NCBI GenBank assembly: GCA_945882015.1
Contig: CAMCVM010000003.1
Span: forward strand, 33,342 to 97,341
Length of the DNA: 64,000 nt
Reading direction: 5' to 3'
Origin: a candidate division TM6 bacterium GW2011_GWF2_32_72
GTDB lineage: Bacteria > Babelota > Babeliae > Babelales > CAIQNR01
The position numbers and the translations under genes are program-made. Positions within the stretch are counted from its first letter, which is position 1; every line of letters starts with the position of its first letter. Positions 10,510-64,000 of this stretch are shown here, one piece after another. Under the pieces are notes generated by a model, which worked only from the letters and a program-made list of their open reading frames with translations, was not told the DNA's origin and searched no databases.

Positions 10510-10513
10510 AAGA

Positions 10514-10585: not shown

Positions 10586-10660
10586 TAATTATTAATTAAT
10601 TTTATCTTTTACTGATTATTTAATAAAATAAAAATTAAAAATAAATAAAAAGGATCAAAA

Positions 10661-37989: not shown

Positions 37990-38001
37990 AATTTATATCC
38001 T

Positions 38002-38048
38002 TTTTTAAGATAGTAACTATGATAGTCCGACGTTTATAATGTTGCAAG
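38002..38048 (-). promoter_or_regulatory. sigma70-like promoter of the 929-aa gene; copy 1 of a 47-bp direct repeat
   Basis: The minus strand reads TTGCAA(38047-38042)-17 nt-TATCAT(38024-38019), about 30 nt upstream of ATG 37989. It matches 38767-38813 at 46 of 47 positions. Confidence 0.6.
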
Positions 38049-38064
38049 GTTATGCAAAAGAGAA

Positions 38065-38451
38065 TCAATTTTTATTTTTTTGTAATACTTCAATAAGCTC
38101 ACTAAATGCTTTCTTGAATGATGGGAGTAAGATGATCAATTTACTGATTGCGTTATCCATATAAGTATGAGATGTCATATTACGCATATCTAAAAAATCA
38201 AACCATAATTGCGGTTCAATATTAAATTTTTCAGCAGATTTCCTAAAAACTTCTCTTGGGCTTTTTGTTTCAATTCCTTCATGAAGTAAGGCTCTTTTGA
38301 GGGCTTTCCAACTTAATTCATAGCAATATTCAAATGCTTTTATAACGGCCGTTTCTTCTGCTTCATTCTGCATTTTTGAGAATTGTAGTAATTTTTTTTC
38401 TGCTTTAATCAGTTGTTCAATATTAACTTTTTCATAATTTTCTTTATTCAT
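38065..38451 (-). CDS. hepT: HEPN-domain toxin, nucleotidyltransferase substrate-binding (HI0074/HepT) family
   Basis: 128 aa and helical, with the Rx4-6H HEPN motif in DMRNMTSHTY. It overlaps the upstream NTase gene by 8 nt. Confidence 0.8.
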   Translation of the reverse strand: MNKENYEKVNIEQLIKAEKKLLQFSKMQNEAEETAVIKAFEYCYELSWKALKRALLHEGIETKSPREVFRKSAEKFNIEPQLWFDFLDMRNMTSHTYMDNAISKLIILLPSFKKAFSELIEVLQKNKN

Positions 38452-38752
38452 TTTCTATTCCTAGATTTTTTTTATTAAGCAGTACTAGATCTTTTTCAAT
38501 ACTGGCAACGAATTTCGGATCACAACGTTCTTGTATTACAACGTCAACCGTAAATGGTAAATAAGATTCTTCAAAAGCATCGTTAATATAAAACGATTCT
38601 AAATTGGTGACTGGCTCTTTAATGAATAAATCTAAATCAGAAAATTTACGGCATTTACCGGTTACCCGGGATCCAAATGCGTAAAAGGTAAAGGGAAACT
38701 GTTTAATAATTTCCCAAACTATTTTTTTATCTTTTTCTTCCATATAAATCAT
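38444..38752 (-). CDS. mntA: minimal nucleotidyltransferase antitoxin (MNT/MntA, HI0073 family)
   Basis: 102 aa. The pol-beta NTase motif is AFGSRVTGKCRKFSDLDLF (GS-x9-12-DxD). It is paired with a HEPN gene. Confidence 0.8.
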   Translation of the reverse strand: MIYMEEKDKKIVWEIIKQFPFTFYAFGSRVTGKCRKFSDLDLFIKEPVTNLESFYINDAFEESYLPFTVDVVIQERCDPKFVASIEKDLVLLNKKNLGIENE

Positions 38753-38766
38753 AGAGGCTTACTTTC

Positions 38767-38813
38767 TTTTTAAGATAGTAACTATGATAGTCAGACGTTT
38801 ATAATGTTGCAAG
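38767..38813 (-). promoter_or_regulatory. copy 2 of the 47-bp repeat; likely promoter of the mntA-hepT operon
   Basis: It carries the same TTGCAA(38812-38807)-17 nt-TATCAT(38789-38784) arrangement, about 30 nt upstream of the mntA start. Confidence 0.55.
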
Positions 38814-38943
38814 TATACTGAAAAAAGAGAAGCTTAATTTTAAAAAAATAAGCTTAAAATCTAATTATTCTTGTTACTGAGTTATCTATTTTGTTATAAT
38901 CAGAAGCGTATCAAGGTAAATCAGAATCAAAAAGGAGGTTTTT

Positions 38944-39804
38944 ATGAAAAATATATCTAATAATTTGTATTTTTATTTACTCTTATTTATTTCAACAATA
39001 AGCAAGGCTGATGGTCCTTCTAAGGCTTTAGAGCTTATGCAAGCTATAGTAGATAATAATTATCCCGATTACGTTATTCCAATCGATCAAGCAATAATAC
39101 CTGATTTGCCATATCAACTTAAAATGGTTCAACAGAATTTACTTGATAATAATCCTGAAAAAGCACATCATAATCTCCGTTTTTTATTACGTGATCCAAA
39201 CAAAATTCCAGGTTTTATAAAATGTGCTAATTTTTATCAAAAAGTAACAGATTATGCAAGCGGAGGAAGATTGACAGGTGTAAAGATTTTTGATGAAAGA
39301 ATTGAACAATTTTTCGTAAAGCTTTTTGAGGCGATTGTCACTTATGGGAATCAGCAAGAATTTTTATTGGTAGCAGATGATTTATTTCATGGACATGTAA
39401 TTTTATTGCATGATAAAGTAACTAACTTTTCTGATATTATAATTGTATTTCATGCTAAAGAATTTCCTGCTGATTTGCCTGAAGCGGGAGGATTTAAAAG
39501 TAGAGCTGCTTCTCCTGTTAATTTTAATATGAAAGATGACACAGCATTTAATAAAAGAAATTTTATTTATTCATTGCGTTCTCATGCATTAATTAATTTG
39601 CAAAAAAATCCTTTAAGTCCAGACTATAAAAGCTATAAAGAGCTCATTACTGAATATGATCCATATTCAGACCTTAGAGTTAATACGGTAAGAGAGCATT
39701 ATTTTGGGCAACCATTATTTGATATTAACTATTTTCCTAATTTACATGGATTTGCAAAGAATGTTCCTGACCCACAAAGATGTCCCGTTTTATTTGCTTA
39801 TTAA
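38944..39804 (+). CDS. hypothetical secreted protein
   Basis: 286 aa with a strong AAGGAGG RBS and signal-like N-terminus YFYLLLFISTISKA. No family was recognised. Confidence 0.65.
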   Translation: MKNISNNLYFYLLLFISTISKADGPSKALELMQAIVDNNYPDYVIPIDQAIIPDLPYQLKMVQQNLLDNNPEKAHHNLRFLLRDPNKIPGFIKCANFYQKVTDYASGGRLTGVKIFDERIEQFFVKLFEAIVTYGNQQEFLLVADDLFHGHVILLHDKVTNFSDIIIVFHAKEFPADLPEAGGFKSRAASPVNFNMKDDTAFNKRNFIYSLRSHALINLQKNPLSPDYKSYKELITEYDPYSDLRVNTVREHYFGQPLFDINYFPNLHGFAKNVPDPQRCPVLFAY

Positions 39805-39830
39805 AAATAAGATCACTCAGGATGATATAC

Positions 39831-41081
39831 TTAGAAATCAGACGTAATTGAAAATCCGACCGATCCGGTAACAGTGTGGTTTTCAAATGCTCTTCGTGCT
39901 CTGACAACATGATTGTAACCAATACCAAACTTTGGGTGAATTCTACGTTCTTGCGAGTTTGCAAAATCAAATTCTGCGCCAACATGTACCACATGCATTG
40001 ACCAATCTTTGAGCATGCTGTCTTGGTTAATCACAGAACCTGGATAAAGTGCATTGTTTTTTGCAACCAGGCTGTCATTACCTTTGTGACTATAGGTGTA
40101 GCCGGTATATAATACAGCAGCACCATATTCTATTTTAAAGTGTCCGCCAACTTCATATAAATTACCCATTGTTTTACTGACGTGTGTTTTTGCAAGTTTG
40201 ATAAAACCATTTTGGCCCAGTGCAGATTGAATGCGTTGTAATGAACTGCGTTTAAACAAAAATGTTTCCTGTAAATGGAACCCAAATGAATAATATGAAG
40301 CAAACCCAAATGCCATATCAAAGCCCAGAAAGACTCCTTTATGTTTGTCATAACCAGGAGCAACAGAAAACGCATAATCTTGATCTTTTGCTGCAGCGGT
40401 GCCAAGTAATGCACCAACCTTAAGTGTCGCATCAAGATAATCTAAGTTATCAAGCGTGTCGGTGCTACGGGTCCATCCAGCAAAGACAGAAACATCACCA
40501 ATCCCTTTGATGCTGTGTCCTTGTCTGCTTAAATTGCTGTCAGCTAAAATAGTATCAAACAAGGCAAAAAATTGGTTCCATTCCGCATCGCGGTCAACTT
40601 CTGCAGTCAAATCAACAAAGGTTGGAGTTTTGATCTCAATTTTATAAAAAGGAATGGTTGAGCCAATAAAAAATTCATCAGTCAGATTCAGCCCAACTGA
40701 AATGGCACCACCTGAATAACAACATTTGCCGGTAAAAGCTAACGTTGCATAATTTTGATCTTCTGTAGTTGGAGTATGACGCCACAACGTATCAAGAACA
40801 TCTTGGCTTATTGCTGATAGGTTTTGATTTTCAACATTTTTACCAATTTGATGCATTTTGTGATTGCCATAAATGCCTAAAACATTCACGCTTTTTCCAT
40901 CACCATCTTTACCTTTGGTGGTGTTGCCATGTCCTCCGAAAGCATCGATGGTTAATAAGCCTTTGCGCTCATAACGTGTTCCAAAGGGATACTGGTGTGC
41001 CGTATAAAAATGTGAATGGGCATAAAAGGTGTGTGGTAACAGAATCAATAAACTGAGTAATTTGAGTTTGTCAGATAACAT
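39831..41081 (-). CDS. outer-membrane beta-barrel protein (porin-like), paralog of 44116-45381
   Basis: About 416 aa from ATG 41081 (AAGGAA RBS). It has a signal peptide and alternating amphipathic beta-strand pattern. The C-terminus ends SVGFSITSDF, with the terminal aromatic Phe typical of OMPs. Confidence 0.7.
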   Translation of the reverse strand: MLSDKLKLLSLLILLPHTFYAHSHFYTAHQYPFGTRYERKGLLTIDAFGGHGNTTKGKDGDGKSVNVLGIYGNHKMHQIGKNVENQNLSAISQDVLDTLWRHTPTTEDQNYATLAFTGKCCYSGGAISVGLNLTDEFFIGSTIPFYKIEIKTPTFVDLTAEVDRDAEWNQFFALFDTILADSNLSRQGHSIKGIGDVSVFAGWTRSTDTLDNLDYLDATLKVGALLGTAAAKDQDYAFSVAPGYDKHKGVFLGFDMAFGFASYYSFGFHLQETFLFKRSSLQRIQSALGQNGFIKLAKTHVSKTMGNLYEVGGHFKIEYGAAVLYTGYTYSHKGNDSLVAKNNALYPGSVINQDSMLKDWSMHVVHVGAEFDFANSQERRIHPKFGIGYNHVVRARRAFENHTVTGSVGFSITSDF

Positions 41082-41220
41082 CACAATTTCCTTTTGCTTG
41101 AAGAGTAGTTGTTTCTAAGCGTTACCTAGTCTGACAAAAAAGTAAAGAGTCAAGATGTTTATAAAGAATAAACAAACATCTTAATCCGCCGAAGGTAAAA
41201 ACGAAGGAGGGTAGGGTAAT

Positions 41221-41250
41221 AAAAAAGGCGAGCCGGAGCCCGCCTTTTTT
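41221..41250. terminator. rho-independent terminator after the 940-aa gene (bidirectional)
   Basis: AAAAAA-GGCGAGC-cgga-GCCCGCC-TTTTTT, 22 nt beyond the stop at 41272. Confidence 0.75.
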
Positions 41251-41271
41251 ATTTGTATATCGTAAGTTGTT

Positions 41272-44094
41272 TTACAGTAGAACAATGCCAGTGCTTGTAC
41301 CAACTGCAATATGTCCATCAGGTAGTTGATTGATGCAGTACAGGGTTTTATTTGCTAATGCTGAAGCTGATACTTTCTCAACAGGGTCAGTAATATTCCA
41401 ATTTGCTGCACCTACTCTATATGGCCAAATGTAAAGCCCGGTTGTACCTGTTGAATCTTCAGGAGTTGCAATCATAAAGCGACGTACACCGTCAGTCCAG
41501 TAATCAAGAATTCTCTTAGCTCTTAAGAAGGTTGTTGTGCTATCAGAAAGATAATGACTAAATGGTAATGATGTTACCACATTATTACCTGTTGCGCCAT
41601 TATCATCATCTGAACAAATAAATTGATCTAAATCACGGAAATTATATGTTCTGGTATTACTACTATTATCTTTAAGTGAAACTGCTTGGAGTGTTGTAGT
41701 TAAGTTAGTTTTGCCTTTTGAGAAAATACCAGTAAACATTTGCCCTCTTGTATCCTTATTTCCGACTTTTTCACCAATCGGTGTCCATAGAGCAGTTGCT
41801 TGGGAAGTTGCACCAGCTATACCAAGAACGTCGTCAGTTTTTGATTGGTAAAGGCCATTATTAGTCGCTAAAATTACTTGTGAACCTGTGCCAGCTGTTA
41901 AACCATTGATGATTTCAAAATCAAGGATTTGAGTAGCAAGTGTTAAATCACTGCTGGTTGCTGAAACACCAGATTGAGCAACCACTACAGTACCGGTAAT
42001 TAATGTACCAACAGTAGTAGCATTAGTTGCTAGCATATACAGTGTATCAACTATCGTAGAGTCTGTTCCAATATCACGAGCAAGTATAAAGGTTCCAGCA
42101 TCAGATGATTTAATCTTCTTAATATGACCAGTAATACTGGTAATAGCTTGCCAAGTATTTGCATTAGCAAAGAAGCCATCATTTAAATTGGTAAGAAGTT
42201 CTGCTACCCCTGAGTTTAATTCAGCACCTTCTCCATCTGCTGTATTTGCATACGCATAAAGGCCCTCTGTTGTTCCAGCTAAGAAAAAGAAAGCTTTCGC
42301 GGTTGTAGTATGAAGAGTTCCACCAAGTGCTGTTACATAACCCGCACCAGAAGGTAAGGTTGTGGCTAAGAAATTTATAGCAGCAGAATAATCAGTAATA
42401 GCTGTTTCATCAATCGAATATGTTCCAGCTGGATCATCTTCAGCAGATGTTCTTGTTTGGACAGTAAAGACTACTTTTTCTTTACCACCAAACACTGCCA
42501 TACGCGAAATAACCTGAGCACCCCAATTAACGGTTGTTCTGTCAAATACAGCCATTGCGGTACAGCCATCAGTTGCTAATTGTGCGTTAACAGCTCCAGC
42601 AAGTTCTGTAGCGCCTGTTTGATCTCCCCAGGTAGTAACTTTTACAGTAGAAAGAGCATTACCTACTATTGCCCATACTTTACCACTACGCGGATCAACT
42701 TTAAAATCATGTACGTCGCCATCAGCTGTTCCTGTTCCGATTGCGTTTGGAGCAGCTTTTGCCCAGCGTGACCAACGAATTATTTTACCGTTTTCATTAA
42801 ATTCTGGAGTTGAATAAAAAATACCAGCTTCATCGCCATTAGCATGACCTAGAACGCTTGATGAGACGTATACTGTATCACCAATTACTTGCATTCTTGT
42901 TAGTGTATCAGCTGTGAAGGGCAGTTTAACAGTTCCAACAATAGCATGAGCATCAGTATTAAGTGGAATATCTGTCGCACCGCTTGCTTGAATGTTAAAA
43001 GTAGGGGTATTTAATTCACTTTTAGCAAAAGTACCATCAGCATCCGTTCCAAGTCCTTTAACTAGTGGTAAAGCATAAACTTGATCTCTTAAATCAGCAC
43101 CAGCAGCTCCTGAGCCACCATTAATAATTAAGTATGCGTGTCCGGTTGAAGTATGCATGACTCCTAAATTATATGCTTTTGCAACTCTTGCCGCAGGAAC
43201 AGCAGATGCAGCAGCAAAAACAATTCTTGTTGCAACATCTCCAGTATCAAAAGCAGCTGTATTAGCAACAGTTGCTAATACGGTTAAGTTACCAGCAGCA
43301 TTAGTTGTTTTTGCAACTAATGTACTAATAGCAATATCTCCCGCTGTGCCGCCTGAAGTTACTTGTCCCCCAATATACAGTCGAGATAAAGTTTCATCCC
43401 AATGAAGAACAGGGTCTTGATTTGCTGTTAAAACTGCAGTTGCAGTTTTTCCATGAGATGTTCCAAGAGGTGCTGCTGTAGCTATTATTGCAGCAGAGTT
43501 AGAAGCTCCAGGAATAGTTAAAGCAGTTTGATCAGTAATTGCTATGACGTTAATACCACGGCCTGCAGTAGCCCAGTTAGTGCTAGCTGTAACAGCTGTT
43601 GCTGCAAAAATAGCAGAACCATTAGCTGCTAATGCTCTTATACCGTTAGCTGCAATATCGGCTCCAGCAATATCTTTTAAAGTAGCGTTTGTTCTTTCAT
43701 CTACTGTGCCGTCTGCACTTTGGATACATACTCTTGTAGTATTAGTTGTGTCTTCTACAAAAGCAAGACGAATAGCATTAGTTGTTGGGTGGTATGATGG
43801 TGCCATTAAACGAATACTAACGTTTGTTGCAAGTCCAGATGCAACACCAGTTTGAGTTGGCGTTGTACCATCATTAGTATGAGCAGAAATTTTGGTAATA
43901 TTATTTAGATCTGCTGCACCAGCTGCAGCTGTTCCAATATAAAGATCACCAGTTGTTCTATCAAGTACCATCGTATTTGTACCAGTGGTAATTGCAGTAT
44001 CAAGGGTTACCGAATCAGGGGCGCATTGTATAAACGGCATAGCTAGGAAACTGCTTAAAAGCAGTCCTAACTTAAACGTTCTGAATGTTTTCAT
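41272..44094 (-). CDS. large secreted Thr/Ala/Gly-rich surface protein, paralog of 35200-37989
   Basis: 940 aa with a signal peptide and an AAGGAA RBS. It starts 21 nt after the upstream OMP gene stop, so it is probably co-transcribed. Conserved blocks are listed under the 929-aa paralog. Confidence 0.8.
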   Translation of the reverse strand: MKTFRTFKLGLLLSSFLAMPFIQCAPDSVTLDTAITTGTNTMVLDRTTGDLYIGTAAAGAADLNNITKISAHTNDGTTPTQTGVASGLATNVSIRLMAPSYHPTTNAIRLAFVEDTTNTTRVCIQSADGTVDERTNATLKDIAGADIAANGIRALAANGSAIFAATAVTASTNWATAGRGINVIAITDQTALTIPGASNSAAIIATAAPLGTSHGKTATAVLTANQDPVLHWDETLSRLYIGGQVTSGGTAGDIAISTLVAKTTNAAGNLTVLATVANTAAFDTGDVATRIVFAAASAVPAARVAKAYNLGVMHTSTGHAYLIINGGSGAAGADLRDQVYALPLVKGLGTDADGTFAKSELNTPTFNIQASGATDIPLNTDAHAIVGTVKLPFTADTLTRMQVIGDTVYVSSSVLGHANGDEAGIFYSTPEFNENGKIIRWSRWAKAAPNAIGTGTADGDVHDFKVDPRSGKVWAIVGNALSTVKVTTWGDQTGATELAGAVNAQLATDGCTAMAVFDRTTVNWGAQVISRMAVFGGKEKVVFTVQTRTSAEDDPAGTYSIDETAITDYSAAINFLATTLPSGAGYVTALGGTLHTTTAKAFFFLAGTTEGLYAYANTADGEGAELNSGVAELLTNLNDGFFANANTWQAITSITGHIKKIKSSDAGTFILARDIGTDSTIVDTLYMLATNATTVGTLITGTVVVAQSGVSATSSDLTLATQILDFEIINGLTAGTGSQVILATNNGLYQSKTDDVLGIAGATSQATALWTPIGEKVGNKDTRGQMFTGIFSKGKTNLTTTLQAVSLKDNSSNTRTYNFRDLDQFICSDDDNGATGNNVVTSLPFSHYLSDSTTTFLRAKRILDYWTDGVRRFMIATPEDSTGTTGLYIWPYRVGAANWNITDPVEKVSASALANKTLYCINQLPDGHIAVGTSTGIVLL

Positions 44095-44115
44095 AATTAT
44101 ATTCCTTTTTTTAAA

Positions 44116-45381
44116 TTAGAATTTCCAGGTGATATTTAAGCCAGCATTACCACCAATTGTGTTGGTGTTGAAAATTCTTTTACCAGCAACCGGGTGATTG
44201 TAGAAAATACCAAGTTTTGGGTTCCAGCATTGGCCTTCTTGTGCAAAATCATATTCTGCTGCAACACTAACAGTATGCATTCTCCATTTTTTCAGCATTT
44301 CATCAGAATTTACAATTAAGTCTGTAAATACATCAGTATCTTCAACAGCAAGTGTTGTGTCTTCTTGTGCTGTGTAGTTATAGCCAACCATTAAAGAAAA
44401 ACCACCAAAAATATGGTCAGCTTTTACATAGGTTCCGATATCCCACAAGTTGCCCAAGTCTTCCCGTGCTTTTCCGCTTGCTAATTTGATAAAACCATTT
44501 TGGTCAGCATGAGTTTTCATTCTTGCATGCACATCGTGCTTTAAGAAGAACTGTCCACCAACATGTGCACCAAAGGTAAACCAGTCATATAATCCTAAAG
44601 CCATATCAAATGACAATGGAATTCCAACGTGTCCGTTGTATCCACCAGGGATTGAAAATGCGTGAGTTGATTTGCGTTCACGTGCTGTTGGGATAGAAAG
44701 ACCAGATTTAATGGTTACATCAAGGAAATCTAAGTAATCAATTGTGTCGTTGTTGTAAGTCCAACCCCCATAAACTACTATATCACCAATATTAGTTTCT
44801 TTAGTTGCAGCCTTTGATACACCATGACGAGTCAAAATGTTATCAAAGCGAGCTAAAAATTGAGTCCATTCAGCAGAGTTAATGTTAGGTAATCCTGTTG
44901 AAGGTGAAATATCGGTAAATGCAACATTTGAAACTTCAAGTCTATGAACTGGAAGTACTACTTGTGCAAAAAATCCATTACAGAAATTTTGAGTTAACGT
45001 TACATCAACACCAAGATATTTGAATTTTCCACTAAATTGTACTTTACCAAAATTTCCGTTATTTGGTTGAGCCATCAAGTTGATTAAGATTGCATCATCA
45101 ATATTCAGAGGGTCAAGGTTTTGAATGCCTTCACCTAAACGATGCATATTGTGAGCGCCATAGATGTTTAAAAGATCAGTTTTGTTTTTGTCACCATTAC
45201 GACCATTCTTTGTGCTTCCTCCCATTACAGAAACGTCAACTGACGAAAGACAGTTGCGGTCAAAGCGTGGCTCACTGTGATAGTCAGCTGCTCTGTAATG
45301 AAAACGGTAACCCAACGCTGAGGCTGGTACCATCAGGAGGGCAAGAACAAAGAAGGCATGAGAAACGAACGTCTTCTTCAT
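44116..45381 (-). CDS. outer-membrane beta-barrel protein (porin-like), paralog of 39831-41081
   Basis: About 421 aa from ATG 45381 (AAGGAA RBS). Signal is MKKTFVSHAFFVLALLMVPASALG. It ends NAGLNITWKF. Blocks shared with its paralog include NIYG.H.MH..G, F.GK, W.QF.A.FD.IL, GD..V..GWT, DYLD.T.K.G, QNGFIKLA and K.W.MH.V.V.AE.DFA. Confidence 0.7.
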   Translation of the reverse strand: MKKTFVSHAFFVLALLMVPASALGYRFHYRAADYHSEPRFDRNCLSSVDVSVMGGSTKNGRNGDKNKTDLLNIYGAHNMHRLGEGIQNLDPLNIDDAILINLMAQPNNGNFGKVQFSGKFKYLGVDVTLTQNFCNGFFAQVVLPVHRLEVSNVAFTDISPSTGLPNINSAEWTQFLARFDNILTRHGVSKAATKETNIGDIVVYGGWTYNNDTIDYLDFLDVTIKSGLSIPTARERKSTHAFSIPGGYNGHVGIPLSFDMALGLYDWFTFGAHVGGQFFLKHDVHARMKTHADQNGFIKLASGKAREDLGNLWDIGTYVKADHIFGGFSLMVGYNYTAQEDTTLAVEDTDVFTDLIVNSDEMLKKWRMHTVSVAAEYDFAQEGQCWNPKLGIFYNHPVAGKRIFNTNTIGGNAGLNITWKF

Positions 45382-45580
45382 ACACACTTCCTTTTTTTTG
45401 TGGTTGAATATTTCTTCACACGTACTGGATTAGACCTAAATAATTATAAAGGAAAAGTAAAGCCTTTTTTTAAGAGGCTCGTTTTTACTTGGTTGAAGTT
45501 AGTTACTTGTTGCCCCTTTTGACCTGTGTTATACTACCTTTATCAATTTTATAAAATTCTTTAAGTAGGTATAAAAAATT

Positions 45581-55769: not shown

Positions 55770-56024
55770 TTATTGATTATAAGGTACGCGAACTATTGGA
55801 CCAAGAAATTGGTCAGCGGCTTGATTATGATTGTCAGGGATCTGGTATTCAGGATCAAACAGAGGATTTTCAAATTCAACAGTAAACTGGTTAGCGCTGT
55901 TTTCTTGTGCTGCTGTGCTTTTTTTAAAACATAATAAGCATTGTGCAAGAAACGCACCAATTTTTTGAGCACCAGCTAGATTGACAGTATAAAAAACGAT
56001 ACCAATTAACCATAATCTTTTCAT
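55770..56024 (-). CDS. small N-terminally anchored/secreted protein, paralog of 56418-56672
   Basis: 84 aa. MKRLWLIGIVFYTVNLAGAQ..QCLLCFKK..EFENPLFDPEY is clearly paralogous to the 84-aa ORF at 56418. Confidence 0.6.
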   Translation of the reverse strand: MKRLWLIGIVFYTVNLAGAQKIGAFLAQCLLCFKKSTAAQENSANQFTVEFENPLFDPEYQIPDNHNQAADQFLGPIVRVPYNQ

Positions 56025-56417: not shown

Positions 56418-56672
56418 TTATTGATTATCAAGATTATCACTATTAGGAGTATCTGATATTGGTCTAAAATAGTTCTGAGTCGATTTAGGAGAATCATACG
56501 GAGTGTTTTCAAACTTAACAATTGCTCTATCATCAGCGCTATAGTCTTGTAAACATTGCTCTCTGTCTTTTTTAAAACAGGGCAAGCATTTTTGAAGTAA
56601 CGCGTACATAGACTGAGCACCAATTAGATTAACATTATAAAAAATGATACCGATTAACCATAATTTTTTCAT
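56418..56672 (-). CDS. small N-terminally anchored/secreted protein, paralog of 55770-56024
   Basis: 84 aa: MKKLWLIGIIFYNVNLIGAQ..KCLPCFKK..KFENTPYDSP. Confidence 0.6.
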   Translation of the reverse strand: MKKLWLIGIIFYNVNLIGAQSMYALLQKCLPCFKKDREQCLQDYSADDRAIVKFENTPYDSPKSTQNYFRPISDTPNSDNLDNQ

Positions 56673-57980: not shown

Positions 57981-58259
57981 ATGCCAGTACCAAAACGTAA
58001 GCGGTCTCGAGCTCGTCGAGATAGTCGTTTTGCAAATAAAGGAATCCAAGCTGCTGCAGTTGGATCATGCTTAAGTTGTAATGCAGCAGTTCAACCTCAT
58101 AGTGCATGCCATGGATGTGGATTCTATCAAGGGCGTAAGATTTTTACTCCTAAATCAGAACGATCAATTATCCGTACTTTAGCTCGTAAAGAAATTGCAG
58201 CAAAAGTAGCCGCTCGTACACAAGGTGGACAAGGGTCTTCAGATACGCAAGTTCAATAA
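57981..58259 (+). CDS. rpmF: 50S ribosomal protein L32 with a C-terminal extension
   Basis: MPVPKRKRSRARRDSR is the L32 N-terminus. It has a CxxC...CxxC zinc ribbon. At 92 aa it is about 30 aa longer than usual. Confidence 0.88.
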   Translation: MPVPKRKRSRARRDSRFANKGIQAAAVGSCLSCNAAVQPHSACHGCGFYQGRKIFTPKSERSIIRTLARKEIAAKVAARTQGGQGSSDTQVQ

Positions 58260-58277
58260 TAAAAAGGGTGAGCAGGT

Positions 58278-58946
58278 ATGATGCAAGAAACTTTACAAGA
58301 ACTTTTGAAAAATGGGTGGCGTCAATTTAAAAAAGATACTTACTCAGTTGTTTTCACTGTTTTATTGTTAGCATTGTTATTAGGATATGGTGGCTATAAA
58401 GCTCATCAATGGTACAGAGTCAGTAAAGAAAGCAAAGCTCAAAAGTTATTTGCACAAGCACTTACCGAATATGAACATGCATTTGCAGAACTTACTAACG
58501 GTGCTCAAACAGTAGCTTGGCAAGATATTGCGCTTGCTTTTGAAGAAGTAACGCAAAAACATCAAGGAACAACGTATAGCTTGTATGCTCAGGCATTTGA
58601 AGCTGATATTAAAGCTCGTCAAGGCCAATTGCAAGAAGCGATAACGCAACTTGAAGGACTTGTTGCAACAATGGCAGCTGATGCACCTGGTTATTATTTT
58701 TTCAAAACAAAAATTGCATTGTTAACTATTGATGCTCAAAATGTTCAGGTAGGTCTTGACCAATTACATGCATTAACTCAAACAGGAAATGCACAAGCAG
58801 ATACAGCAGCATTCTTTTTGGGTCTTTATTATTGGACGCATGATGATGTTGCAAAAGCTCAAGAAGTATGGAAATTCTTTGATGCTACACAAGCTGATTC
58901 ACCATGGGCACAAATTGTTCAAGCTAAACTTTTACAAGTAGCATAA
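58278..58946 (+). CDS. membrane-anchored TPR-like protein (YfgM-like)
   Basis: 222 aa with a single N-terminal TM (VVFTVLLLALLLGYGGY) followed by helical repeats, as in YfgM/UPF0070. The call is by eye. Confidence 0.4.
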   Translation: MMQETLQELLKNGWRQFKKDTYSVVFTVLLLALLLGYGGYKAHQWYRVSKESKAQKLFAQALTEYEHAFAELTNGAQTVAWQDIALAFEEVTQKHQGTTYSLYAQAFEADIKARQGQLQEAITQLEGLVATMAADAPGYYFFKTKIALLTIDAQNVQVGLDQLHALTQTGNAQADTAAFFLGLYYWTHDDVAKAQEVWKFFDATQADSPWAQIVQAKLLQVA

Positions 58947-58953
58947 GACTATT

Positions 58954-60369
58954 ATGGCATCATCACAAAACATTAGGGTTCGTTTTGCTCCATCTCCAAC
59001 AGGGAATTTACATATTGGGGGCATGCGAACCGCTCTTTTTAATTATCTTTTTGCAAAACATTATCAAGGCACATTTTTAATTCGTATTGAAGACACAGAC
59101 CTTGAGCGTTCAAAGCCAGAATTTGTTACTGCGCAACTTGCAGCGCTTGAGTGGTGTGGCATTGAAAGTGACGAACCATTAGTGTTTCAATCGCAACGGA
59201 CTCAAGCATATCAAGAAGTTTTGAGTAAGTTGTTTCAAGAAAAAAGAATCTATCGTTGTGTGTGCAGTCCAGAAGCGGTTGAAGCTCGCGTTAAAGCATC
59301 GGGTAATACTGATGAATTTTTTGCGTATGATCAACTCTGTCGTAATAAGAATATTCCAGCTGATTGTGGAAAACCATTTGTTATTCGGTTTGCAGTTCCA
59401 GAAGAGCAACAGCCAATTGTGGTTAATGATTTAATTAGAGGCAAGGTTGTGTTTGAAAAAGCACAGTTTGATGACTTTATTATTATTCGTTCTGACGGTT
59501 CGCCCATGTATAACTTTGCAGTTGTGGTTGATGATGCATTCATGAACATTACCCATATTATTCGTGGAGAAGAACATTTAGGTAACACTCCAAAACAGAT
59601 CATGTTGGCTCAAGCTATGGGTTTTGCAATGCCAGAGTGTGCACATATTCCGTTAATCTTAAGTCCCAATGGTGGCAAATTAAGTAAGCGTGATGGTGCA
59701 GTTGATGTTAATCAATTTAAAAAAGATGGTTACTTAGCCCATGCGTTGGTTAACTATGTAGTACGTCTTGGTTGGGCGCATGCAGACCAAGAAGTTTTTA
59801 CCCAAGAAGAACTCATAAAAGCGTTTACTCTTGATGGGGTTGGTAAAAAAGGTGCTGTTTTTGATTTGCAAAAACTTGACTGGTTAAATGGGTTATATCT
59901 TAAACAATTAACGCCGCATGCTTGTCTTGACTGGCTCATTAAAGATGTTTGCCCCGATTTGAAAGAGCAACTAACATCTTGGAATACTCAAACTATTGAA
60001 ACTGCGATAAAATTGTACCAAGAGCGCGTTAAACTTGGTTCTGAGCTTTGCACTATACTTAAAGCATTGCATGACGGACCAACTGTTTATGATGCTCATG
60101 AGATAGCAACATGGCTTACCGCAGAGGCTCGAATTCATTTGGTGGTTCTTTTGTCTGAACTTAAAAATCTTACCAGTTTTACGCATGACGCCATCAGTGA
60201 AACATTGAAACAGTTCTGTAAAAATCAAAATATTAAATTGGTTGCCATTGCGCAACCGTTACGCATCGCTTTGACTGGCGGTACCAGCAGCCCTGGAGTT
60301 TTTGATCTTGTTGCTTTACTGGGCAAAGAAACAGTGATTAAACGTATTGAACTGTTGCTGCAAGTTTAA
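58954..60369 (+). CDS. gltX: glutamyl-tRNA synthetase
   Basis: 471 aa. HIGH region is RFAPSPTGNLHIGG and KMSKS is KLSKRDG. Confidence 0.93.
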   Translation: MASSQNIRVRFAPSPTGNLHIGGMRTALFNYLFAKHYQGTFLIRIEDTDLERSKPEFVTAQLAALEWCGIESDEPLVFQSQRTQAYQEVLSKLFQEKRIYRCVCSPEAVEARVKASGNTDEFFAYDQLCRNKNIPADCGKPFVIRFAVPEEQQPIVVNDLIRGKVVFEKAQFDDFIIIRSDGSPMYNFAVVVDDAFMNITHIIRGEEHLGNTPKQIMLAQAMGFAMPECAHIPLILSPNGGKLSKRDGAVDVNQFKKDGYLAHALVNYVVRLGWAHADQEVFTQEELIKAFTLDGVGKKGAVFDLQKLDWLNGLYLKQLTPHACLDWLIKDVCPDLKEQLTSWNTQTIETAIKLYQERVKLGSELCTILKALHDGPTVYDAHEIATWLTAEARIHLVVLLSELKNLTSFTHDAISETLKQFCKNQNIKLVAIAQPLRIALTGGTSSPGVFDLVALLGKETVIKRIELLLQV

Positions 60370-60497: not shown

Positions 60498-61898
60498 GTG
60501 AAAAAATATGGGGTTATGCCTTTTTTAAGGCTCTTAGTCGCTTTATTAGTAGTACATACTTCTGTTAAAAGTTCTGAACAGTCAATTATTGATGTGCAAG
60601 CTGTTAAAGGTATTTTTCAACAATTAATTGTTTCGCCTACTTCTTCATATTCTAGCTATGGCAGGACTGTTGATCAATTGACTCAAAAGATTTTACAGCA
60701 ATCGCTTAACGACAATAATCCTATCACAGCATTTTTACGTGCGACAGATCAAGATGGAAGGTGCAAGAATCATCAAACTACGGTTATGGAAAAAGTACTT
60801 GAACAGCAACCTGCAGCGTTATCTATTTTTGCTGAATACTTTTTACAAAAGAAATCATTGTTGGGGGTTTGTGAGGAACAATTCATTCAAGACTGGAAAG
60901 AAGCACTACAAGGGAAAAAATCATTAACGCAAACGTGCGCACATTTAAGTACTCAAGGATTGAATAAGCCGCTTGAGTTTTTTACCAAGCATTATCAGCC
61001 ACAATTGATCAAAGCTGCTCTGAAAGAACGCGAACTGAATGATCAAGGGTATACTGTTTTTTACCATGGGCAGCAGAATTTTTTTGGATTTTATCAAGAT
61101 TTTTGTAAAAAATTATTACTTGAATGTTTCAAGCAGGGTATTGTTACCTATAAACTGCCTAAGGATTTCTTTTTTGTAAGAATACCATCTTCTTTAAAAG
61201 ATTTGATGCATAACGGTTTATCTGCAGCAATGCAACAAAAAGAAACTGCAAAGCGAAACAATATTATGAATTGCGTGATAAGCGATTATAATAGTTGCTT
61301 GTCTGTGAATGGATTTTTATTTGGAAGTACCGGCAATTGCGCTTGTTCAACATGGAATTTTGTGGTTTCTAATTCGAATTGCTTATCTTATTCGGGCCCA
61401 AATTTAGGAAAACAGATTTTTGAAAGCCTTGGTTATGAAGCTTCTTTTAGTAAATTTAAGTTATCAATAAGCAACCTCTTAAAAGAATATAAAGAGTTTT
61501 TTAGCGTTGGTAGATTATTGCAAGTAGCGGTCCCAGCACACTTAGTTGACGAATGTACTTTTATTTCATCAGGGCAAGCTTATAAAATTTCGGTTGATTG
61601 TGGGCGGTCAGTTGGGTCAATTTCAAAAGTTTCAGAGCAAATGAAGTACTGCAAGGAGAAAAATTTTTCTGCTTATGGGCGGTATTGTGAAAACCATTAT
61701 TGTGTAATTATGACAGAAGACATGGCTTTAAACCCAAGAAGTGGGATTAAGTATTTTAGTTATGATGGTACTCCTGAACAGCAAATTGCATTCCGTTTTC
61801 TTGGAGAGGAGCGCACGGTTACGTATTCAGAGCATTGTGCCAAAGTTGATCAATTGATTTGTGATATTGTGCAGCACTTGAAGCATAAAAGCCGTTAA
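60498..61898 (+). CDS. hypothetical secreted Cys-rich protein
   Basis: 466 aa (GTG 60498 or ATG 60516) with a signal-like N-terminus and many Cys. No family was recognised. Confidence 0.6.
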   Translation: MKKYGVMPFLRLLVALLVVHTSVKSSEQSIIDVQAVKGIFQQLIVSPTSSYSSYGRTVDQLTQKILQQSLNDNNPITAFLRATDQDGRCKNHQTTVMEKVLEQQPAALSIFAEYFLQKKSLLGVCEEQFIQDWKEALQGKKSLTQTCAHLSTQGLNKPLEFFTKHYQPQLIKAALKERELNDQGYTVFYHGQQNFFGFYQDFCKKLLLECFKQGIVTYKLPKDFFFVRIPSSLKDLMHNGLSAAMQQKETAKRNNIMNCVISDYNSCLSVNGFLFGSTGNCACSTWNFVVSNSNCLSYSGPNLGKQIFESLGYEASFSKFKLSISNLLKEYKEFFSVGRLLQVAVPAHLVDECTFISSGQAYKISVDCGRSVGSISKVSEQMKYCKEKNFSAYGRYCENHYCVIMTEDMALNPRSGIKYFSYDGTPEQQIAFRFLGEERTVTYSEHCAKVDQLICDIVQHLKHKSR

Positions 61899-61909
61899 AC
61901 GTAGCAGTG

Positions 61910-62869
61910 TTAATCATTTTCATGCTCAAAAATTAATGGTTCTTTCCCTACAAAAGTAAGCAATGCATTCATATCTTCAAAGGTAACGACAGTAAACACT
62001 TTTTTATCAGGATGAGCTGTTTCAAGTTGTTTTTGTAGCTCTTTTGATGGGCCAATAATAATAATAACATCACAGAATGAAAATGCGTCAATTACCTTTT
62101 TCCATTGCAAGGGTGCATGGATCTGTTGCATAATACCCGCTCGAATAGCATCACCACTTGTTAATGCTTGGCCAGTTACACTTGTGATAAAAGGGACTTG
62201 CGAATCTTTAAAATCGACTTTTTCAAGGTACATTTTCATCGTTTTAACTAAATCGTCCATTAACTGACTATGCAGTCCTCCCCCAATTTCGCCTAACGTT
62301 GTGGGAATGCTGGTTAAGGTAGCAATTGTTTTTTTAAGGCAGTTTATCGATTCATTGGTTCCTGTTATTAACGTTTGTTCGTCAGTTTCGTACGCTGCAA
62401 TAGTTACTAAATTATTGCCATTGGTGCATTCTAAGCAGGCTTTTTTTATTGTTTCAAGTTCAACATGAAAAATATTGATTGCAGTAAGTTTGCGTTGATC
62501 TAACAGTTCTTGATAAAGTCCTGAATATTTACGCAACAAATAGACTGCATCAGGTAACGTAATGCCATCAACAGCAGCAAGTGCGGCATATTCACCAATG
62601 TCCCGCCCAGCAACCAAAGAAGGAATAATGCCCTGTTCTTTTAAAATGCCATTAAGGGATAATGAAACTAAAAATAAAGAAATATAGGCATTTTCAAGCT
62701 CAGTCAAGGTTGAGTCTGAAGAAGCAAAACATAATTTTACAAAATTTTTATCAAGGCAATTGGCAGCTTCTTCAAAGTGCTCTTGCATAATACGAGAATG
62801 GTCATAAAACTCTTTTGCCATACCGACAAATTGACCGCCATATCCTGGAAATATAAATCCAAATTTCAT
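61910..62869 (-). CDS. malonyl-CoA:ACP transacylase (FabD) homolog with substituted active-site residues
   Basis: The start is taken at ATG 62869 (AAGGGG RBS). FGFIFPGYGGQFVGM, LVAGRDIGEYAAL, GGGLHSQLM and APLQW align with FabD FPGQGSQ, GHSLGEY, PSHCALM and NPVQW. The nucleophile Ser is Asp and the preceding His is Arg. Confidence 0.75.
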   Translation of the reverse strand: MKFGFIFPGYGGQFVGMAKEFYDHSRIMQEHFEEAANCLDKNFVKLCFASSDSTLTELENAYISLFLVSLSLNGILKEQGIIPSLVAGRDIGEYAALAAVDGITLPDAVYLLRKYSGLYQELLDQRKLTAINIFHVELETIKKACLECTNGNNLVTIAAYETDEQTLITGTNESINCLKKTIATLTSIPTTLGEIGGGLHSQLMDDLVKTMKMYLEKVDFKDSQVPFITSVTGQALTSGDAIRAGIMQQIHAPLQWKKVIDAFSFCDVIIIIGPSKELQKQLETAHPDKKVFTVVTFEDMNALLTFVGKEPLIFEHEND

Positions 62870-62997
62870 AGCCGACCCCTTTTTTTTATCTTTATGCATA
62901 AGATAGCAAGTCAATGACCGTTGTTGCTACAATTAATTTTTGCTATCATGCTTAAGTCGTTTAAACCGGTTATGTAAGTAATAATTAAAGGAACGTA

Positions 62998-63249
62998 ATG
63001 GCAAAGACAAAATCAGAAATCACAGAAACGGTAACAACATTGGTTGCTCAAATTCTTGAAAAAGAAGACACCATTTCAATTATTCCAGCAGTCCACTTAA
63101 AAGATTTAGGAATGGACCAGTTTGATGTTATTGAATTGGCCATGAAGTTAGAAGATCAATTAAGTATTGCAATTGATGATAAAGAGATTGAGCATTTTGA
63201 TTCAATTGAAAGCGTGGTTGAATGTGTTGCAGGCAAAAAGGTAGAGTAG
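62998..63249 (+). CDS. acyl carrier protein homolog lacking the phosphopantetheine-attachment serine
   Basis: 83 aa and acidic. LKDLGMDQFDVIELAMKLEDQL aligns with ACP DLGADSLDTVELVM. The DSL serine codon is CAG (Gln). Confidence 0.75.
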   Translation: MAKTKSEITETVTTLVAQILEKEDTISIIPAVHLKDLGMDQFDVIELAMKLEDQLSIAIDDKEIEHFDSIESVVECVAGKKVE

Positions 63250-63276
63250 ACGACGTCCATTAATAAAAGAAAGAAG

Positions 63277-64000
63277 ATGAAAGTGAAGTTTTTTAAGATA
63301 ATAGTTTTATTGATTCCATTGCTCTGTAATGCGGTACCACATGGTTCTGAATACGATTGCATGTTGGTGTCTTTACCAGCAAGTGGAAGTTCTTTTTTTG
63401 CGGCAGCAATAGCCAAAAGTAACCAAAATGTACGGTATAATTCTGAACAACTTACTCGGCAATGGGGTGGAATTAATTATGTTAAATATTTACCGGAAGG
63501 TCAGTTAAAAGGTCTTTATAATAGTCGCTTTGCAAGAACAGATTATAATTTTACTAAAGAAGTTTTTATGAGTCTGCACACCGGGCTTTGGATACAACGT
63601 TTTACTGTGTTTTGTTTGTATAGAAAGCGGCAGCATACTTTCCCCTGTAAGAAACATACCCAATATTTTTTAGATATGTTTAAAGAATTTGTTACATTGC
63701 CTTGTCCAGATCAGATAAAAGAGTCGGTAAGAACTTATATTAAAAAAAATGCTCATACTGATTTAGAAAAGCAGGTGGCAATACATACGCTACTTAATTA
63801 TATTATGTGTTCTGATGCTCAAAAATATGGCCTTAATGTTATAGAATATGCACAAATAATGCAATTAGAGGGGCCACAATTACACGAGTATTTAGAAAAT
63901 AAAGTTCCAAAGCAATTAATGACTCATCAATTAGTTAGTCAAATACTTGTAGATCGTTTTGAAGATTCAGATTTTTTAAGTAAAAGAGAACAAAATTATC
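63277..64000 (+). CDS. hypothetical secreted protein (partial; runs off the right edge of the window)
   Basis: The frame is open from ATG 63277 to the window end and is absent from the ORF track. The N-terminus is MKVKFFKIIVLLIPLLCNA. SLPASGSSFF faintly resembles a sulfotransferase PAPS-loop, which I treat as not established. Confidence 0.5.
   Translation, partial: MKVKFFKIIVLLIPLLCNAVPHGSEYDCMLVSLPASGSSFFAAAIAKSNQNVRYNSEQLTRQWGGINYVKYLPEGQLKGLYNSRFARTDYNFTKEVFMSLHTGLWIQRFTVFCLYRKRQHTFPCKKHTQYFLDMFKEFVTLPCPDQIKESVRTYIKKNAHTDLEKQVAIHTLLNYIMCSDAQKYGLNVIEYAQIMQLEGPQLHEYLENKVPKQLMTHQLVSQILVDRFEDSDFLSKREQNY

What the first reader, a model, noticed from the sequence alone, without database searches (positions are those of the whole stretch)
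61910..63249. Divergent FabD-like and ACP-like genes have both lost their essential serines
- The FabD homolog aligns well with E. coli FabD.
- At GHSLGEY it reads GRDIGEY, so the nucleophile Ser92 becomes Asp and His91 becomes Arg.
- At FPGQGSQ it reads FPGYGGQ.
- The Arg117 position appears substituted (LLRKYSGLYQ vs LVEMRGKFMQ).
- The adjacent ACP homolog reads DLGMDQFDVIEL where ACPs have DLGxDSLDxVEL. The 4'-phosphopantetheine attachment Ser is Gln (codon CAG at about 63118-63120).
- No fabH, fabG or fabF flank the pair, although rpmF, which heads the classical rpmF-plsX-fabHDG-acpP cluster, lies ~4 kb away.
- Both ORFs are intact, which suggests retention of a non-catalytic or re-purposed pair after loss of type II fatty-acid synthesis.
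Basis: partly seen in the sequence, partly recalled or inferred. Interest (0 to 1): 0.65.

Follow-up and report, generated by a model that had tools for sequence, protein, structure and literature searches.

The report
Dead FabD and serine-less ACP pair
A parasitic Babeliales (Dependentiae/TM6) bacterium keeps, under purifying selection, the last two genes of its lost fatty-acid-synthesis cluster, although the enzyme has no catalytic serine and the carrier protein has no cofactor-attachment serine, so both must now do something other than make fatty acids.

Summary
The FabD homologue (61910-62869, minus strand) reads GRDIGEY, FPGYGGQ and Tyr where E. coli FabD has Ser92/His91, Gln11 and Arg117. 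The ACP homologue (62998-63249, plus strand) has Gln (CAG, 63118-63120) at the phosphopantetheine serine.

This is not a local oddity.
- The Ser-less FabD is a large Dependentiae family. None of the 120 closest homologues has the serine, and only 3 of 96 stand-alone representatives at 50% identity do.
- Its active site is consistently re-lined: Q11Y, Q63Y, H91Y, S92 to D/N/G, R117 to Y/F, M121Y.
- A basal TM6 contig still has gltX-fabD(Ser)-fabG-acpP-fabF at the same locus, so the pair is the orthologous remnant of FAS II.
- Most relatives pair the dead FabD with a normal DSL ACP, often with plsX nearby. One large clade, which includes this window, and one small clade have lost the ACP serine (Q, K, E, W, R).

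Both genes are under purifying selection (ω about 0.12 and 0.2) and fold confidently as FabD and ACP. The most likely reading is a non-catalytic, cofactor-independent binding function. The mechanism itself is inferred. I found no description of this in the literature searched.

The parts
61910..62869 (-). fabD* : FabD-fold protein, 319 aa, lacking the Ser nucleophile (pseudo-malonyl-CoA:ACP transacylase)
   Evidence: Pfam Acyl_transf_1 85.2 bits. TIGR00128 154.7 bits, below the 260.9 cut-off. AlphaFold2 pLDDT 94.8. Foldseek 1mla/6u0j TM 0.87-0.89.
62600..62605 (-). codons CGG-GAC = Arg-Asp at the positions of E. coli His91-Ser92 (nucleophile elbow reads G-R-D-I-G)
62840..62842 (-). TAT = Tyr at the position of Gln11 (oxyanion-hole residue), motif FPGYGGQ
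   Evidence: Tyr in 111 of 120 homologues
62525..62527 (-). TAT = Tyr at the position of Arg117 (malonyl-carboxylate clamp)
   Evidence: Tyr or Phe in 109 of 120 homologues
62270..62272 (-). CAT = His retained at the position of His201
   Evidence: His in 117 of 120 close homologues, but Tyr/Phe/Asn/other (non-His) in about 22 of 96 distant representatives
62870..62997 (.). 128-bp spacer between the divergently transcribed fabD* and acp*, with a Shine-Dalgarno-like box before each start
   Evidence: The promoter scan gave nothing above the shuffled background.
62998..63249 (+). acp* : ACP-fold protein, 83 aa, that cannot be phosphopantetheinylated at the canonical site
   Evidence: Pfam PP-binding 38.4 bits. 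TIGR00517 43.6 bits, below the 70.45 cut-off. AlphaFold2 pLDDT 80.4 with four helices. Foldseek ACPs TM about 0.8.
63118..63120 (+). CAG = Gln at the position of the 4'-phosphopantetheine Ser (DSL -> DQF)
57981..60369 (+). conserved upstream synteny block rpmF (57981-58259), TPR_21 protein (58278-58946), gltX (58954-60369). This is the remnant of the rpmF-plsX-fab cluster head, and plsX is absent here.
60498..61898 (+). 466-aa ORF that starts with a hydrophobic, signal-peptide-like segment and has no Pfam match. It sits between gltX and the inverted fabD*, in a variable slot in sister strains. It is context only, probably not part of the module.

Best explanation
The pair is the vertically inherited remnant of the fabD-(fabG)-acpP-(fabF) part of the classical rpmF-plsX-fab cluster, in a Babeliales (Dependentiae/TM6) genome that scavenges host lipids.

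Shown:
- FabD* has lost the Ser nucleophile, the Arg117 carboxylate clamp, the Gln11 and Gln63 side chains, and the Asn160 and Asn162 side chains that line the pantetheine groove in E. coli FabD. It therefore cannot carry out covalent malonyl transfer.
- ACP* has Gln in place of the attachment Ser, so it cannot carry acyl groups.
- Both are nevertheless kept intact, confidently folded and under purifying selection.
- The former FabD active site has not drifted. It has been replaced by a conserved set of aromatic residues: Tyr11, Tyr63, Tyr91 (Arg in this window), Tyr/Phe117 and Tyr121.

Inferred:
- FabD* is a pseudoenzyme that now works by binding, either a protein partner or a small hydrophobic or cationic ligand in the Tyr-lined pocket.
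- ACP* works as a cofactor-independent protein-interaction subunit, as the Ser-less mitochondrial ACP of Plasmodium does.
- The history has three steps. First, FabD died and fabG/fabF were lost, while holo-ACP was kept to serve PlsX-type phospholipid acylation. Second, in the clade that contains this window, that last acyl-ACP use disappeared and the ACP serine was lost. Third, both proteins persisted for the binding role.
- Persistent adjacency, often with overlapping stop and start codons in relatives, suggests the two act together. This has not been shown.
For: - Catalytic columns.
- Family-wide pattern: 0 Ser among the 120 closest homologues (S92 -> D 58, N 53, G 7, E 2; Y11 111/120; Y63 112/120; Y/F117 109/120; Y121 108/120). 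Only 3 of 96 stand-alone 50%-identity representatives have Ser, and two of those three carry the full canonical QQHSR set; the third (P0356) keeps Gln11, Ser92, Arg117, His201 and Gln250 but has His63, Tyr91 and Leu121.
- Orthology: conserved synteny. L011 has gltX-fabD(GHSSGEY, R117)-fabG-acpP(DSL)-fabF, and its FabD already carries the lineage motifs QEYFEEA, NFVRLCFASS and KVDF.
- Selection: fabD* ω 0.11-0.13, equal to ftsK (0.117) in the same genome pair. acp* pN 0.144 against pS 0.48, p = 1.2e-6.
- Folds: pLDDT 94.8 and TM 0.88 to 1mla; pLDDT 80.4 and TM about 0.8 to ACPs.
- ACP serine loss is clade-specific, and the replacement is itself conserved: 35 clusters carry GFDWLAH.
- plsX lies between rpmF and fabD* in 17 of 33 Ser-ACP loci and in 0 of 7 Ser-less loci (p = 0.014).
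- ACP lies immediately downstream, 0-50 bp away, in most of the 93 loci.
- Literature: TM6 lack fatty-acid synthesis genes (PMC4776705). There is a precedent for an essential Ser-less ACP (PMC8547962).
Against: - No direct evidence of what is bound, or that the two proteins interact.
- The residues through which E. coli FabD docks AcpP (K189, R190, L192, K279, K286, R287) are not conserved in FabD*. A complex, if it exists, does not use the canonical interface.
- In this species group the two genes are no longer co-transcribed, because fabD* is inverted. In the complete Noda2021 genome no ACP gene lies within 10 kb of fabD*.
- ACP* evolves about 1.5 times faster, relative to FabD*, in Ser-less lineages. 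Its dN between sister species is 4-6 times that of the housekeeping neighbours, so constraint on it is relaxed.
- Absence of acpS, a second ACP and FAS II from the rest of this genome was not checked.
Confidence: 0.6

Rival explanations
1. FabD* is still an enzyme, with new chemistry that needs no covalent Ser intermediate. One example would be a His-assisted hydrolase or transferase acting on a host-derived acyl-thioester or lipid held in the aromatic pocket. ACP* would be an accessory subunit.
For: His201 is kept in 117 of 120 close homologues and Gln/His250 is largely kept. The pocket residues are conserved rather than random. Losing Arg117 is the change known to open FabD to non-carboxylated acyl groups (10.1101/2020.05.15.098798).
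Against: Position 92 alternates between Asp, Asn and Gly, so it has no consistent chemical role. His201 is Tyr/Phe/Asn/other (non-His) in about 22 of 96 distant representatives. The Gln11 side chain at the oxyanion-hole position and the Asn160 and Asn162 side chains that line the pantetheine groove in E. coli FabD are replaced.
Confidence: 0.17
2. The two proteins have unrelated surviving functions, and their adjacency is only inherited gene order. ACP* would be a structural subunit of some other complex, as ACP is in NFS1-ISD11, Ycf2-FtsHi or EmbA-EmbB. FabD* would act alone or with a different partner.
For: The canonical docking residues are not conserved. fabD* is inverted here. Noda2021 has fabD* without a neighbouring ACP. 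The two genes evolve at very different rates. ACP appears as a structural subunit in many solved complexes, and MCAT appears in a mitoribosome assembly intermediate, 8csp.
Against: Tight adjacency with overlapping or nearly abutting ORFs has been kept across about 90 loci that span 40% identity, in genomes whose surrounding gene order is otherwise fluid.
Confidence: 0.15
3. The genes are decaying relics under relaxed selection, that is, pseudogenes not yet disrupted.
For: The catalytic and attachment residues are lost, FAS II partners are missing from the window, and ACP* evolves faster in Ser-less lineages.
Against: ω is 0.11-0.13 for fabD* and neutrality is rejected for acp*. ORFs are intact in more than 90 loci and hundreds of clusters. 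Invariant motifs persist. AlphaFold confidence is very high. The one apparent truncation (P0055) sits on long-read contigs in which gltX, ftsK and EF genes are also fragmented, so it is an assembly artefact.
Confidence: 0.03
4. They are ordinary extra paralogues alongside a complete, functional FAS II (with true FabD and AcpP) elsewhere in the genome.
For: The rest of the genome was not inspected. One basal TM6 lineage does keep fabD-fabG-acpP-fabF.
Against: The pair occupies the ancestral fab locus next to rpmF/gltX, not a secondary site. There is only one FabD-like and one ACP-like ORF in the 64 kb window. Published genome comparisons report no fatty-acid synthesis in TM6.
Confidence: 0.05

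Closest known systems
FabD, malonyl-CoA:ACP transacylase (E. coli 1MLA / 6U0J; TIGR00128)
   Same: Same two-subdomain fold (TM 0.87-0.89, rmsd 2.0-2.3 Å). Same length. Shares the FPG.G.Q and G..xGEY framework, His201 and Gln250. Same genomic locus, downstream of rpmF and next to acp.
   Different: No Ser92. His91, Gln11, Gln63, Arg117 and Met121 are all replaced, mostly by Tyr. The pantetheine-groove residues Asn160/162 and the AcpP-docking Lys/Arg residues are not conserved. Scores below the TIGR00128 cut-off.
AcpP, bacterial acyl carrier protein (TIGR00517)
   Same: Four-helix ACP fold, acidic (net charge -11), with Asp35, Asp38 and Glu41 equivalents on helix II retained, and located next to fabD.
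   Different: DSL is DQF, so there is no attachment serine. Scores below the TIGR00517 cut-off. Evolves faster than Ser-containing orthologues.
Plasmodium falciparum mitochondrial ACP (mACP; Ser replaced by Phe113; eLife 2021, PMC8547962)
   Same: An ACP retained and functional after loss of the FAS II enzymes, with the Ppant serine replaced. In the sister Dependentiae clade the replacement is a conserved aromatic residue (Trp). The organism is a parasite with reduced metabolism.
   Different: mACP is eukaryotic and organellar and works through the LYR protein Isd11 in Fe-S cluster biogenesis. No LYR partner is known or was tested here. The bacterial case also keeps a dead FabD alongside the ACP, which Plasmodium mitochondria do not. 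The residue in this window is Gln, not an aromatic.
ACP or MCAT as non-catalytic subunits of large complexes (NFS1-ISD11-ACP 5WKP; Ycf2-FtsHi 8XKS; EmbA-EmbB-AcpM2 7BVG; MCAT in the mitoribosome small-subunit intermediate 8CSP)
   Same: These show that both folds are used as structural or regulatory subunits outside fatty-acid synthesis.
   Different: Those proteins keep their catalytic or attachment serines and their primary FAS role. No such complex is identified for the Dependentiae pair.

Membership tests
FabD / ACP S-malonyltransferase (TIGR00128 equivalog) | Whole-protein score at or above the curated cut-off (260.9 bits) | tested here: not met
   154.7 bits
FabD / ACP S-malonyltransferase (TIGR00128 equivalog) | Nucleophilic Ser92 in the GHSxG elbow | tested here: not met
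   G-R-D-I-G; Asp at the Ser column
FabD / ACP S-malonyltransferase (TIGR00128 equivalog) | His201 of the Ser-His dyad | tested here: met
   His200 of the window protein aligns to His201
FabD / ACP S-malonyltransferase (TIGR00128 equivalog) | Arg117 binding the malonyl carboxylate, and Gln11 at the oxyanion hole | tested here: not met
   Both are Tyr
FabD / ACP S-malonyltransferase (TIGR00128 equivalog) | Malonyl transfer from CoA to holo-ACP | not testable with these tools
   Needs an enzyme assay
Acyl_transf_1 superfamily (Pfam PF00698; FabD-like fold) | Domain score above the gathering threshold, and an alpha/beta-hydrolase-like plus ferredoxin-like two-subdomain fold | tested here: met
   85.2 bits against 32.7; TM 0.87-0.89 to 1mla/6u0j
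AcpP acyl carrier protein (TIGR00517 equivalog) | Whole-protein score at or above the cut-off (70.45 bits) | tested here: not met
   43.6 bits
AcpP acyl carrier protein (TIGR00517 equivalog) | Ser of the D-S-L motif at the N-terminus of helix II, as the 4'-phosphopantetheine attachment site | tested here: not met
   D-Q-F; CAG at 63118-63120
AcpP acyl carrier protein (TIGR00517 equivalog) | Small, acidic, four-helix bundle | tested here: met
   83 aa, net charge -11, predicted helices at 5-19, 34-37, 41-55, 61-65 and 70-82, of which 5-19, 41-55, 61-65 and 70-82 correspond to ACP helices I-IV; TM about 0.8 to ACP structures
Phosphopantetheine-independent ACP (apicomplexan mACP type) | Attachment Ser replaced while the gene stays under selection | tested here: met
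   Gln here; K, E, W or R in relatives; pN 0.144 against pS 0.48, p = 1.2e-6
Phosphopantetheine-independent ACP (apicomplexan mACP type) | FAS II enzymes and phosphopantetheinyl transferase absent from the same genome or compartment | tested here: inconclusive
   None in the 64 kb window, and the literature says TM6 lack FAS. The whole genome was not available.
Phosphopantetheine-independent ACP (apicomplexan mACP type) | Acts by binding an LYR-motif protein (Isd11) | not tested
   No partner was searched for. Bacteria generally lack LYRM proteins (own knowledge).
Pseudoenzyme (catalytically dead homologue retained for another role) | Key catalytic residues missing, with conservation and purifying selection retained | tested here: met
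Pseudoenzyme (catalytically dead homologue retained for another role) | Experimentally shown lack of the ancestral activity, and an identified new role | not testable with these tools
   Needs biochemistry

The most novel reading that the evidence does not exclude
FabD* and ACP* form a previously unrecognised, phylum-wide, cofactor-independent module. The acyltransferase fold would have been converted into a tyrosine-lined ligand- or partner-binding protein, for example for handling host-derived lipid. The ACP would have become a pure protein-interaction subunit, and the residue that replaced the serine (Trp, Gln, Lys or Glu) would take over the docking role of the lost phosphopantetheine arm. 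This would be the first bacterial counterpart of the apicomplexan Ser-less ACP, and a new function for the FabD fold.
Probability: 0.3. Interest if true: 0.8.

Novelty: new variant of a known kind. Interest (0 to 1): 0.62.

Why it matters
ACP and FabD are textbook essential parts of bacterial lipid synthesis and are antibiotic targets. Here an entire phylum of obligate intracellular parasites has discarded the pathway but kept these two proteins for hundreds of millions of substitutions' worth of divergence. Their chemistry has been deleted and the old active site rebuilt.

This gives a natural, stepwise series: active FabD with FAS II, then dead FabD with holo-ACP and PlsX, then dead FabD with Ser-less ACP. 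The series can be used to ask which functions of ACP and FabD, other than making fatty acids, are important enough to be retained. That question is also open for mitochondria and apicomplexans.

There is a practical point as well. Annotation pipelines label these proteins 'ACP S-malonyltransferase' and 'acyl carrier protein'. This can wrongly suggest fatty-acid synthesis capacity in metabolic reconstructions of Dependentiae genomes assembled from metagenomes.

Tried and rejected
- **Promoter and terminator scan** of 61700-63500: nothing above the shuffled background.
- **Word-indexed search with the single ACP sequence**: only 3 hits. A profile of 13 Ser-less ACPs taken from loci was needed.
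- **Genome-contig scan with the full-length alignment**: swamped by canonical FabDs through the shared GMGKELYD-type pattern, and only six Dependentiae loci were recovered. A family-specific N-terminal segment alignment (NFVKLCFA) worked for the metagenome scan.
- **The 175-aa 'truncated' FabD* (P0055)**: considered as evidence of real pseudogenisation and rejected. The same contigs also fragment gltX, ftsK and EF genes, so these are indel errors.
- **DNA for the 94%-identical P0002**: could not be fetched. L173/L174 were used instead.
- **The family motifs NFVKLCFASS and MYLEKVDF as signs of a new function**: rejected, because the still-canonical FabD of L011 already has them.
- **A retained Ser-His-like dyad with Asp as nucleophile**: rejected, because position 92 is Asn or Gly in most of the family and His201 is not universal.
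- **Canonical FabD-AcpP docking as the basis of a complex**: rejected, because the interface residues are not conserved.
- **A fused-chain AlphaFold prediction of the complex**: not possible under the tool's input rules.
Full report
**Observation**

The window is AT-rich, about 35% G+C. At 61910-62914 (-) there is an intact ORF. Its likely start is the ATG at 62867-62869 (MKFGFIFPGYGGQ...), preceded by an AAGGGG box. At 62998-63249 (+) there is an intact 83-codon ORF preceded by AAAGGA. The two are divergent and separated by 128 bp.

- The first ORF matches Pfam Acyl_transf_1 (E 7.5e-24). It matches NCBIfam fabD at only 154.7 bits against a cut-off of 260.9.
- The second ORF matches PP-binding (E 1.5e-9). 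It matches acyl_carrier at 43.6 bits against a cut-off of 70.45.

The HMMER alignment to E. coli FabD (1mla, E 6.5e-25) and MAFFT column mapping give:
- Ser92 -> Asp, His91 -> Arg, Gln11 -> Tyr, Gln63 -> Tyr, Arg117 -> Tyr, Met121 -> Tyr.
- His201 and Gln250 are retained.

The ACP reads DLGMDQFD, with CAG at 63118-63120. The same residues recur in independent assemblies.

**Organism**

The closest homologues that carry names are 'Candidatus Dependentiae' and 'Candidatus Babeliales'. The near-identical protein on a 437-kb contig is deposited as Candidatus Babeliales bacterium.

**The FabD-like protein belongs to a large Ser-less family**

- All 120 best homologues (40-98% identity) lack Ser at the nucleophile column: D 58, N 53, G 7, E 2.
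- They share Tyr at position 11 (111/120), Tyr at 63 (112), Tyr at 91 (86), Tyr or Phe at 117 (109) and Tyr at 121 (108). His201 is kept in 117.
- An exhaustive profile search of 1.84 billion cluster representatives returned 96 stand-alone proteins among the top 150. At position 92 they have G 41, N 25, D 21 and other residues 6. Only 3 have Ser; two of these have the full canonical QQHSR residue set and the third (P0356) keeps Gln11, Ser92, Arg117, His201 and Gln250 but has His63, Tyr91 and Leu121. In this wider set His201 is replaced by another residue, mostly Tyr, in about 22.
- The Asn160 and Asn162 side chains that line the pantetheine groove in E. coli FabD, and the AcpP-docking residues defined by the crosslinked FabD-AcpP structure (K189, R190, L192, K279, K286, R287; 10.1101/2020.05.15.098798), are not conserved.
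- AlphaFold2 with a 114-sequence alignment gives pLDDT 94.8 and pTM 0.92. Foldseek places the model on 6u0j_A, 1mla and 2g1h with TM 0.87-0.89 and rmsd 2.0-2.3 Å.

The protein is therefore a well-folded FabD whose active site has been replaced consistently, not degraded at random.

**Origin**

In relatives the gene order is gyrA-dprA-rpmF-(plsX)-TPR_21-gltX-fabD*-acp, all on one strand.

A contig of a basal TM6 lineage (L011, UASB124-like) has gltX-fabD-[ankyrin and unknown genes]-fabG-acpP-fabF. Its FabD is fully canonical (FPGQGSQ, GHSSGEY, Arg117, Asn160/162). It already carries the lineage motifs QEYFEEA, NFVRLCFASS and KVDF, and it is 39% identical to the window protein, against 30% or less for FabDs of other phyla.

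The window pair is therefore the orthologous remnant of the FAS II cluster. The substitutions that separate FabD* from its active ancestor are concentrated in the active site.

In the window's species group, fabD* alone has been inverted. The slot between gltX and fabD* is variable: a 466-aa ORF here, and a nucleotidyltransferase/HepT pair plus NUDIX and unknown genes in sister strains.

**The ACP**

Across 93 Dependentiae loci, an ACP gene lies immediately downstream of fabD*, 0-50 bp away and often overlapping, in most of them.

- About 70 loci keep the canonical DLGADSLD motif.
- The serine is lost in one large clade of the FabD* tree. Replacements are Gln in the window, Lys in L173/L174, Glu in L003, L094, L095 and L112, and Trp in L001, L008, L097, L102, L103 and L110.
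- It is also lost in a second, small clade (Glu in L161, Arg in L170).

A profile search with the Ser-less ACPs found 39 clusters scoring 95-117 bits, all of them Ser-less (W 35 with a conserved GFDWLAH motif, K 2, Q 1, E 1). Scores then drop sharply to canonical DSL ACPs at 80 bits or less.

plsX sits between rpmF and fabD* in 17 of 33 Ser-ACP loci and in 0 of 7 Ser-less loci (Fisher p = 0.014). This fits the idea that holo-ACP was retained only where an acyl-ACP-using step of phospholipid synthesis survives.

The window ACP is predicted as a four-helix ACP (pLDDT 80.4) with Gln41 at the N-terminus of helix II. It superposes on ACP structures with TM about 0.8.

**Selection**

All values compare this species group (the window or its 98%-identical strain L091) with its sister species L173.

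| Gene | dN | dS | ω |
|---|---|---|---|
| fabD* | 0.03 | 0.22-0.26 | 0.11-0.13 |
| ftsK | 0.041 | 0.35 | 0.117 |
| bacA | 0.035 | 0.154 | 0.23 |
| bipA | 0.011 | 0.325 | 0.034 |
| acp* | 0.16 | 0.77-0.92 | about 0.2 |

- For acp*, site counts give pN 0.144 against pS 0.48, which rejects neutrality (p = 1.2e-6).
- Its dN is nevertheless 4-6 times that of the housekeeping neighbours.
- Relative to FabD*, ACP diverges about 1.5 times faster in Ser-less lineages than in Ser lineages.
- ACP* is therefore retained, but under weaker or shifted constraint.
- The apparently truncated FabD* (P0055) is an artefact of indel-rich long-read contigs.

**Context**

The 64-kb window has no fab gene, no plsX, no recognisable PPTase and no second ACP. 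It does have a PgsA-like CDP-alcohol phosphatidyltransferase.

Published comparative genomics states that TM6 genomes lack fatty-acid biosynthesis and degradation genes and probably use host lipids (PMC4776705; PMC6561590). L011 shows that at least one basal lineage is an exception.

The searches of the paper library returned no paper among those listed that mentions Dependentiae or Babela together with FabD or ACP, and no description of a Ser-less FabD family.

**Interpretation**

Shown:
- The two genes are orthologous remnants of fabD and acpP.
- Neither can perform its canonical chemistry.
- Both are retained under purifying selection and fold normally.
- The FabD serine loss is ancient and family-wide.
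- The ACP serine loss is later and clade-specific.

Inferred:
- FabD* is a pseudoenzyme that acts by binding. Its pocket is now lined by five aromatic residues plus Asp/Asn/Gly.
- ACP* acts as a cofactor-independent interaction subunit, analogous to Plasmodium mACP, where Phe113 replaces the serine and contributes to partner binding (PMC8547962).
- The two may act together, given their persistent adjacency.

Against a canonical complex: the known docking residues are not conserved, the genes are divergently transcribed here, and Noda2021 has fabD* without a neighbouring ACP.

A residual non-covalent catalytic activity of FabD* cannot be excluded. It is disfavoured by the variability of position 92 and of His201.

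**Verdict**

The finding is a new variant of known kinds (a pseudoenzyme and a Ser-less ACP), and I did not find it described in the literature searched. Its function remains to be determined experimentally.

Noticed in passing
window 7250-11431 (+): Five tandem paralogous ORFs (229-261 aa, 19-65% pairwise identity) with no Pfam match. This is a locally expanded gene family of unknown function.
   Followed up: partly
window 35200-45387 (-): A duplicated two-gene module: 929-aa plus 417-aa ORFs (35200-37989, 39831-41084) and 940-aa plus 423-aa ORFs (41272-44094, 44116-45387). Each pair is about 34% identical and none has a Pfam match.
   Followed up: partly
window 55770-56024 and 56418-56672 (-): Two small paralogous ORFs (84 aa each, 53% identity over 60 residues) with hydrophobic N-termini, lying between gyrA and dprA.
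   Followed up: no
window 60498-61898 (+); L088-L090, L174: The slot between gltX and the inverted fabD* is variable. This window has a 466-aa ORF that starts with a hydrophobic, signal-peptide-like segment and has no Pfam match. Sister strains have a nucleotidyltransferase/HepT toxin-antitoxin-like pair, a NUDIX protein and unknown genes.
   Followed up: partly
window 62998-63249 vs L173 1137-1385: Synonymous divergence of acp* (dS 0.77-0.92) is 2-5 times that of fabD* and the other neighbouring genes (dS 0.15-0.36) in the same genome pair. The cause could be small-gene noise, recombination or mutation bias, and it is unresolved.
   Followed up: partly
L011 1146-7974: A TM6 (UASB124-like) MAG contig encodes canonical fabD, fabG, acpP and fabF, although the comparative study that included UASB124 states that TM6 lack fatty-acid synthesis genes.
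   Followed up: partly
L135 581-1513: One family member has Ser back at (or still at) the nucleophile column (GYSLGEY). It nevertheless carries Tyr11, Tyr63, Tyr91 and Phe117, and is paired with a DSL ACP. It may be an intermediate or a reversion.
   Followed up: no
window 30746-31357 (+): A PgsA-like CDP-alcohol phosphatidyltransferase. Phospholipid head-group chemistry is therefore retained even though no acyl-chain synthesis genes are visible.
   Followed up: no
L088-L090 (JGI contigs Ga0496538_0084, Ga0496538_1876 and Ga0506816_0525; 34, 437 and 203 kb): These contigs of the same species show many split genes (gltX in three pieces, ftsK and EF-type GTPase genes fragmented). This points to uncorrected indel errors, so gene calls from them should not be read as pseudogenes.
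   Followed up: yes
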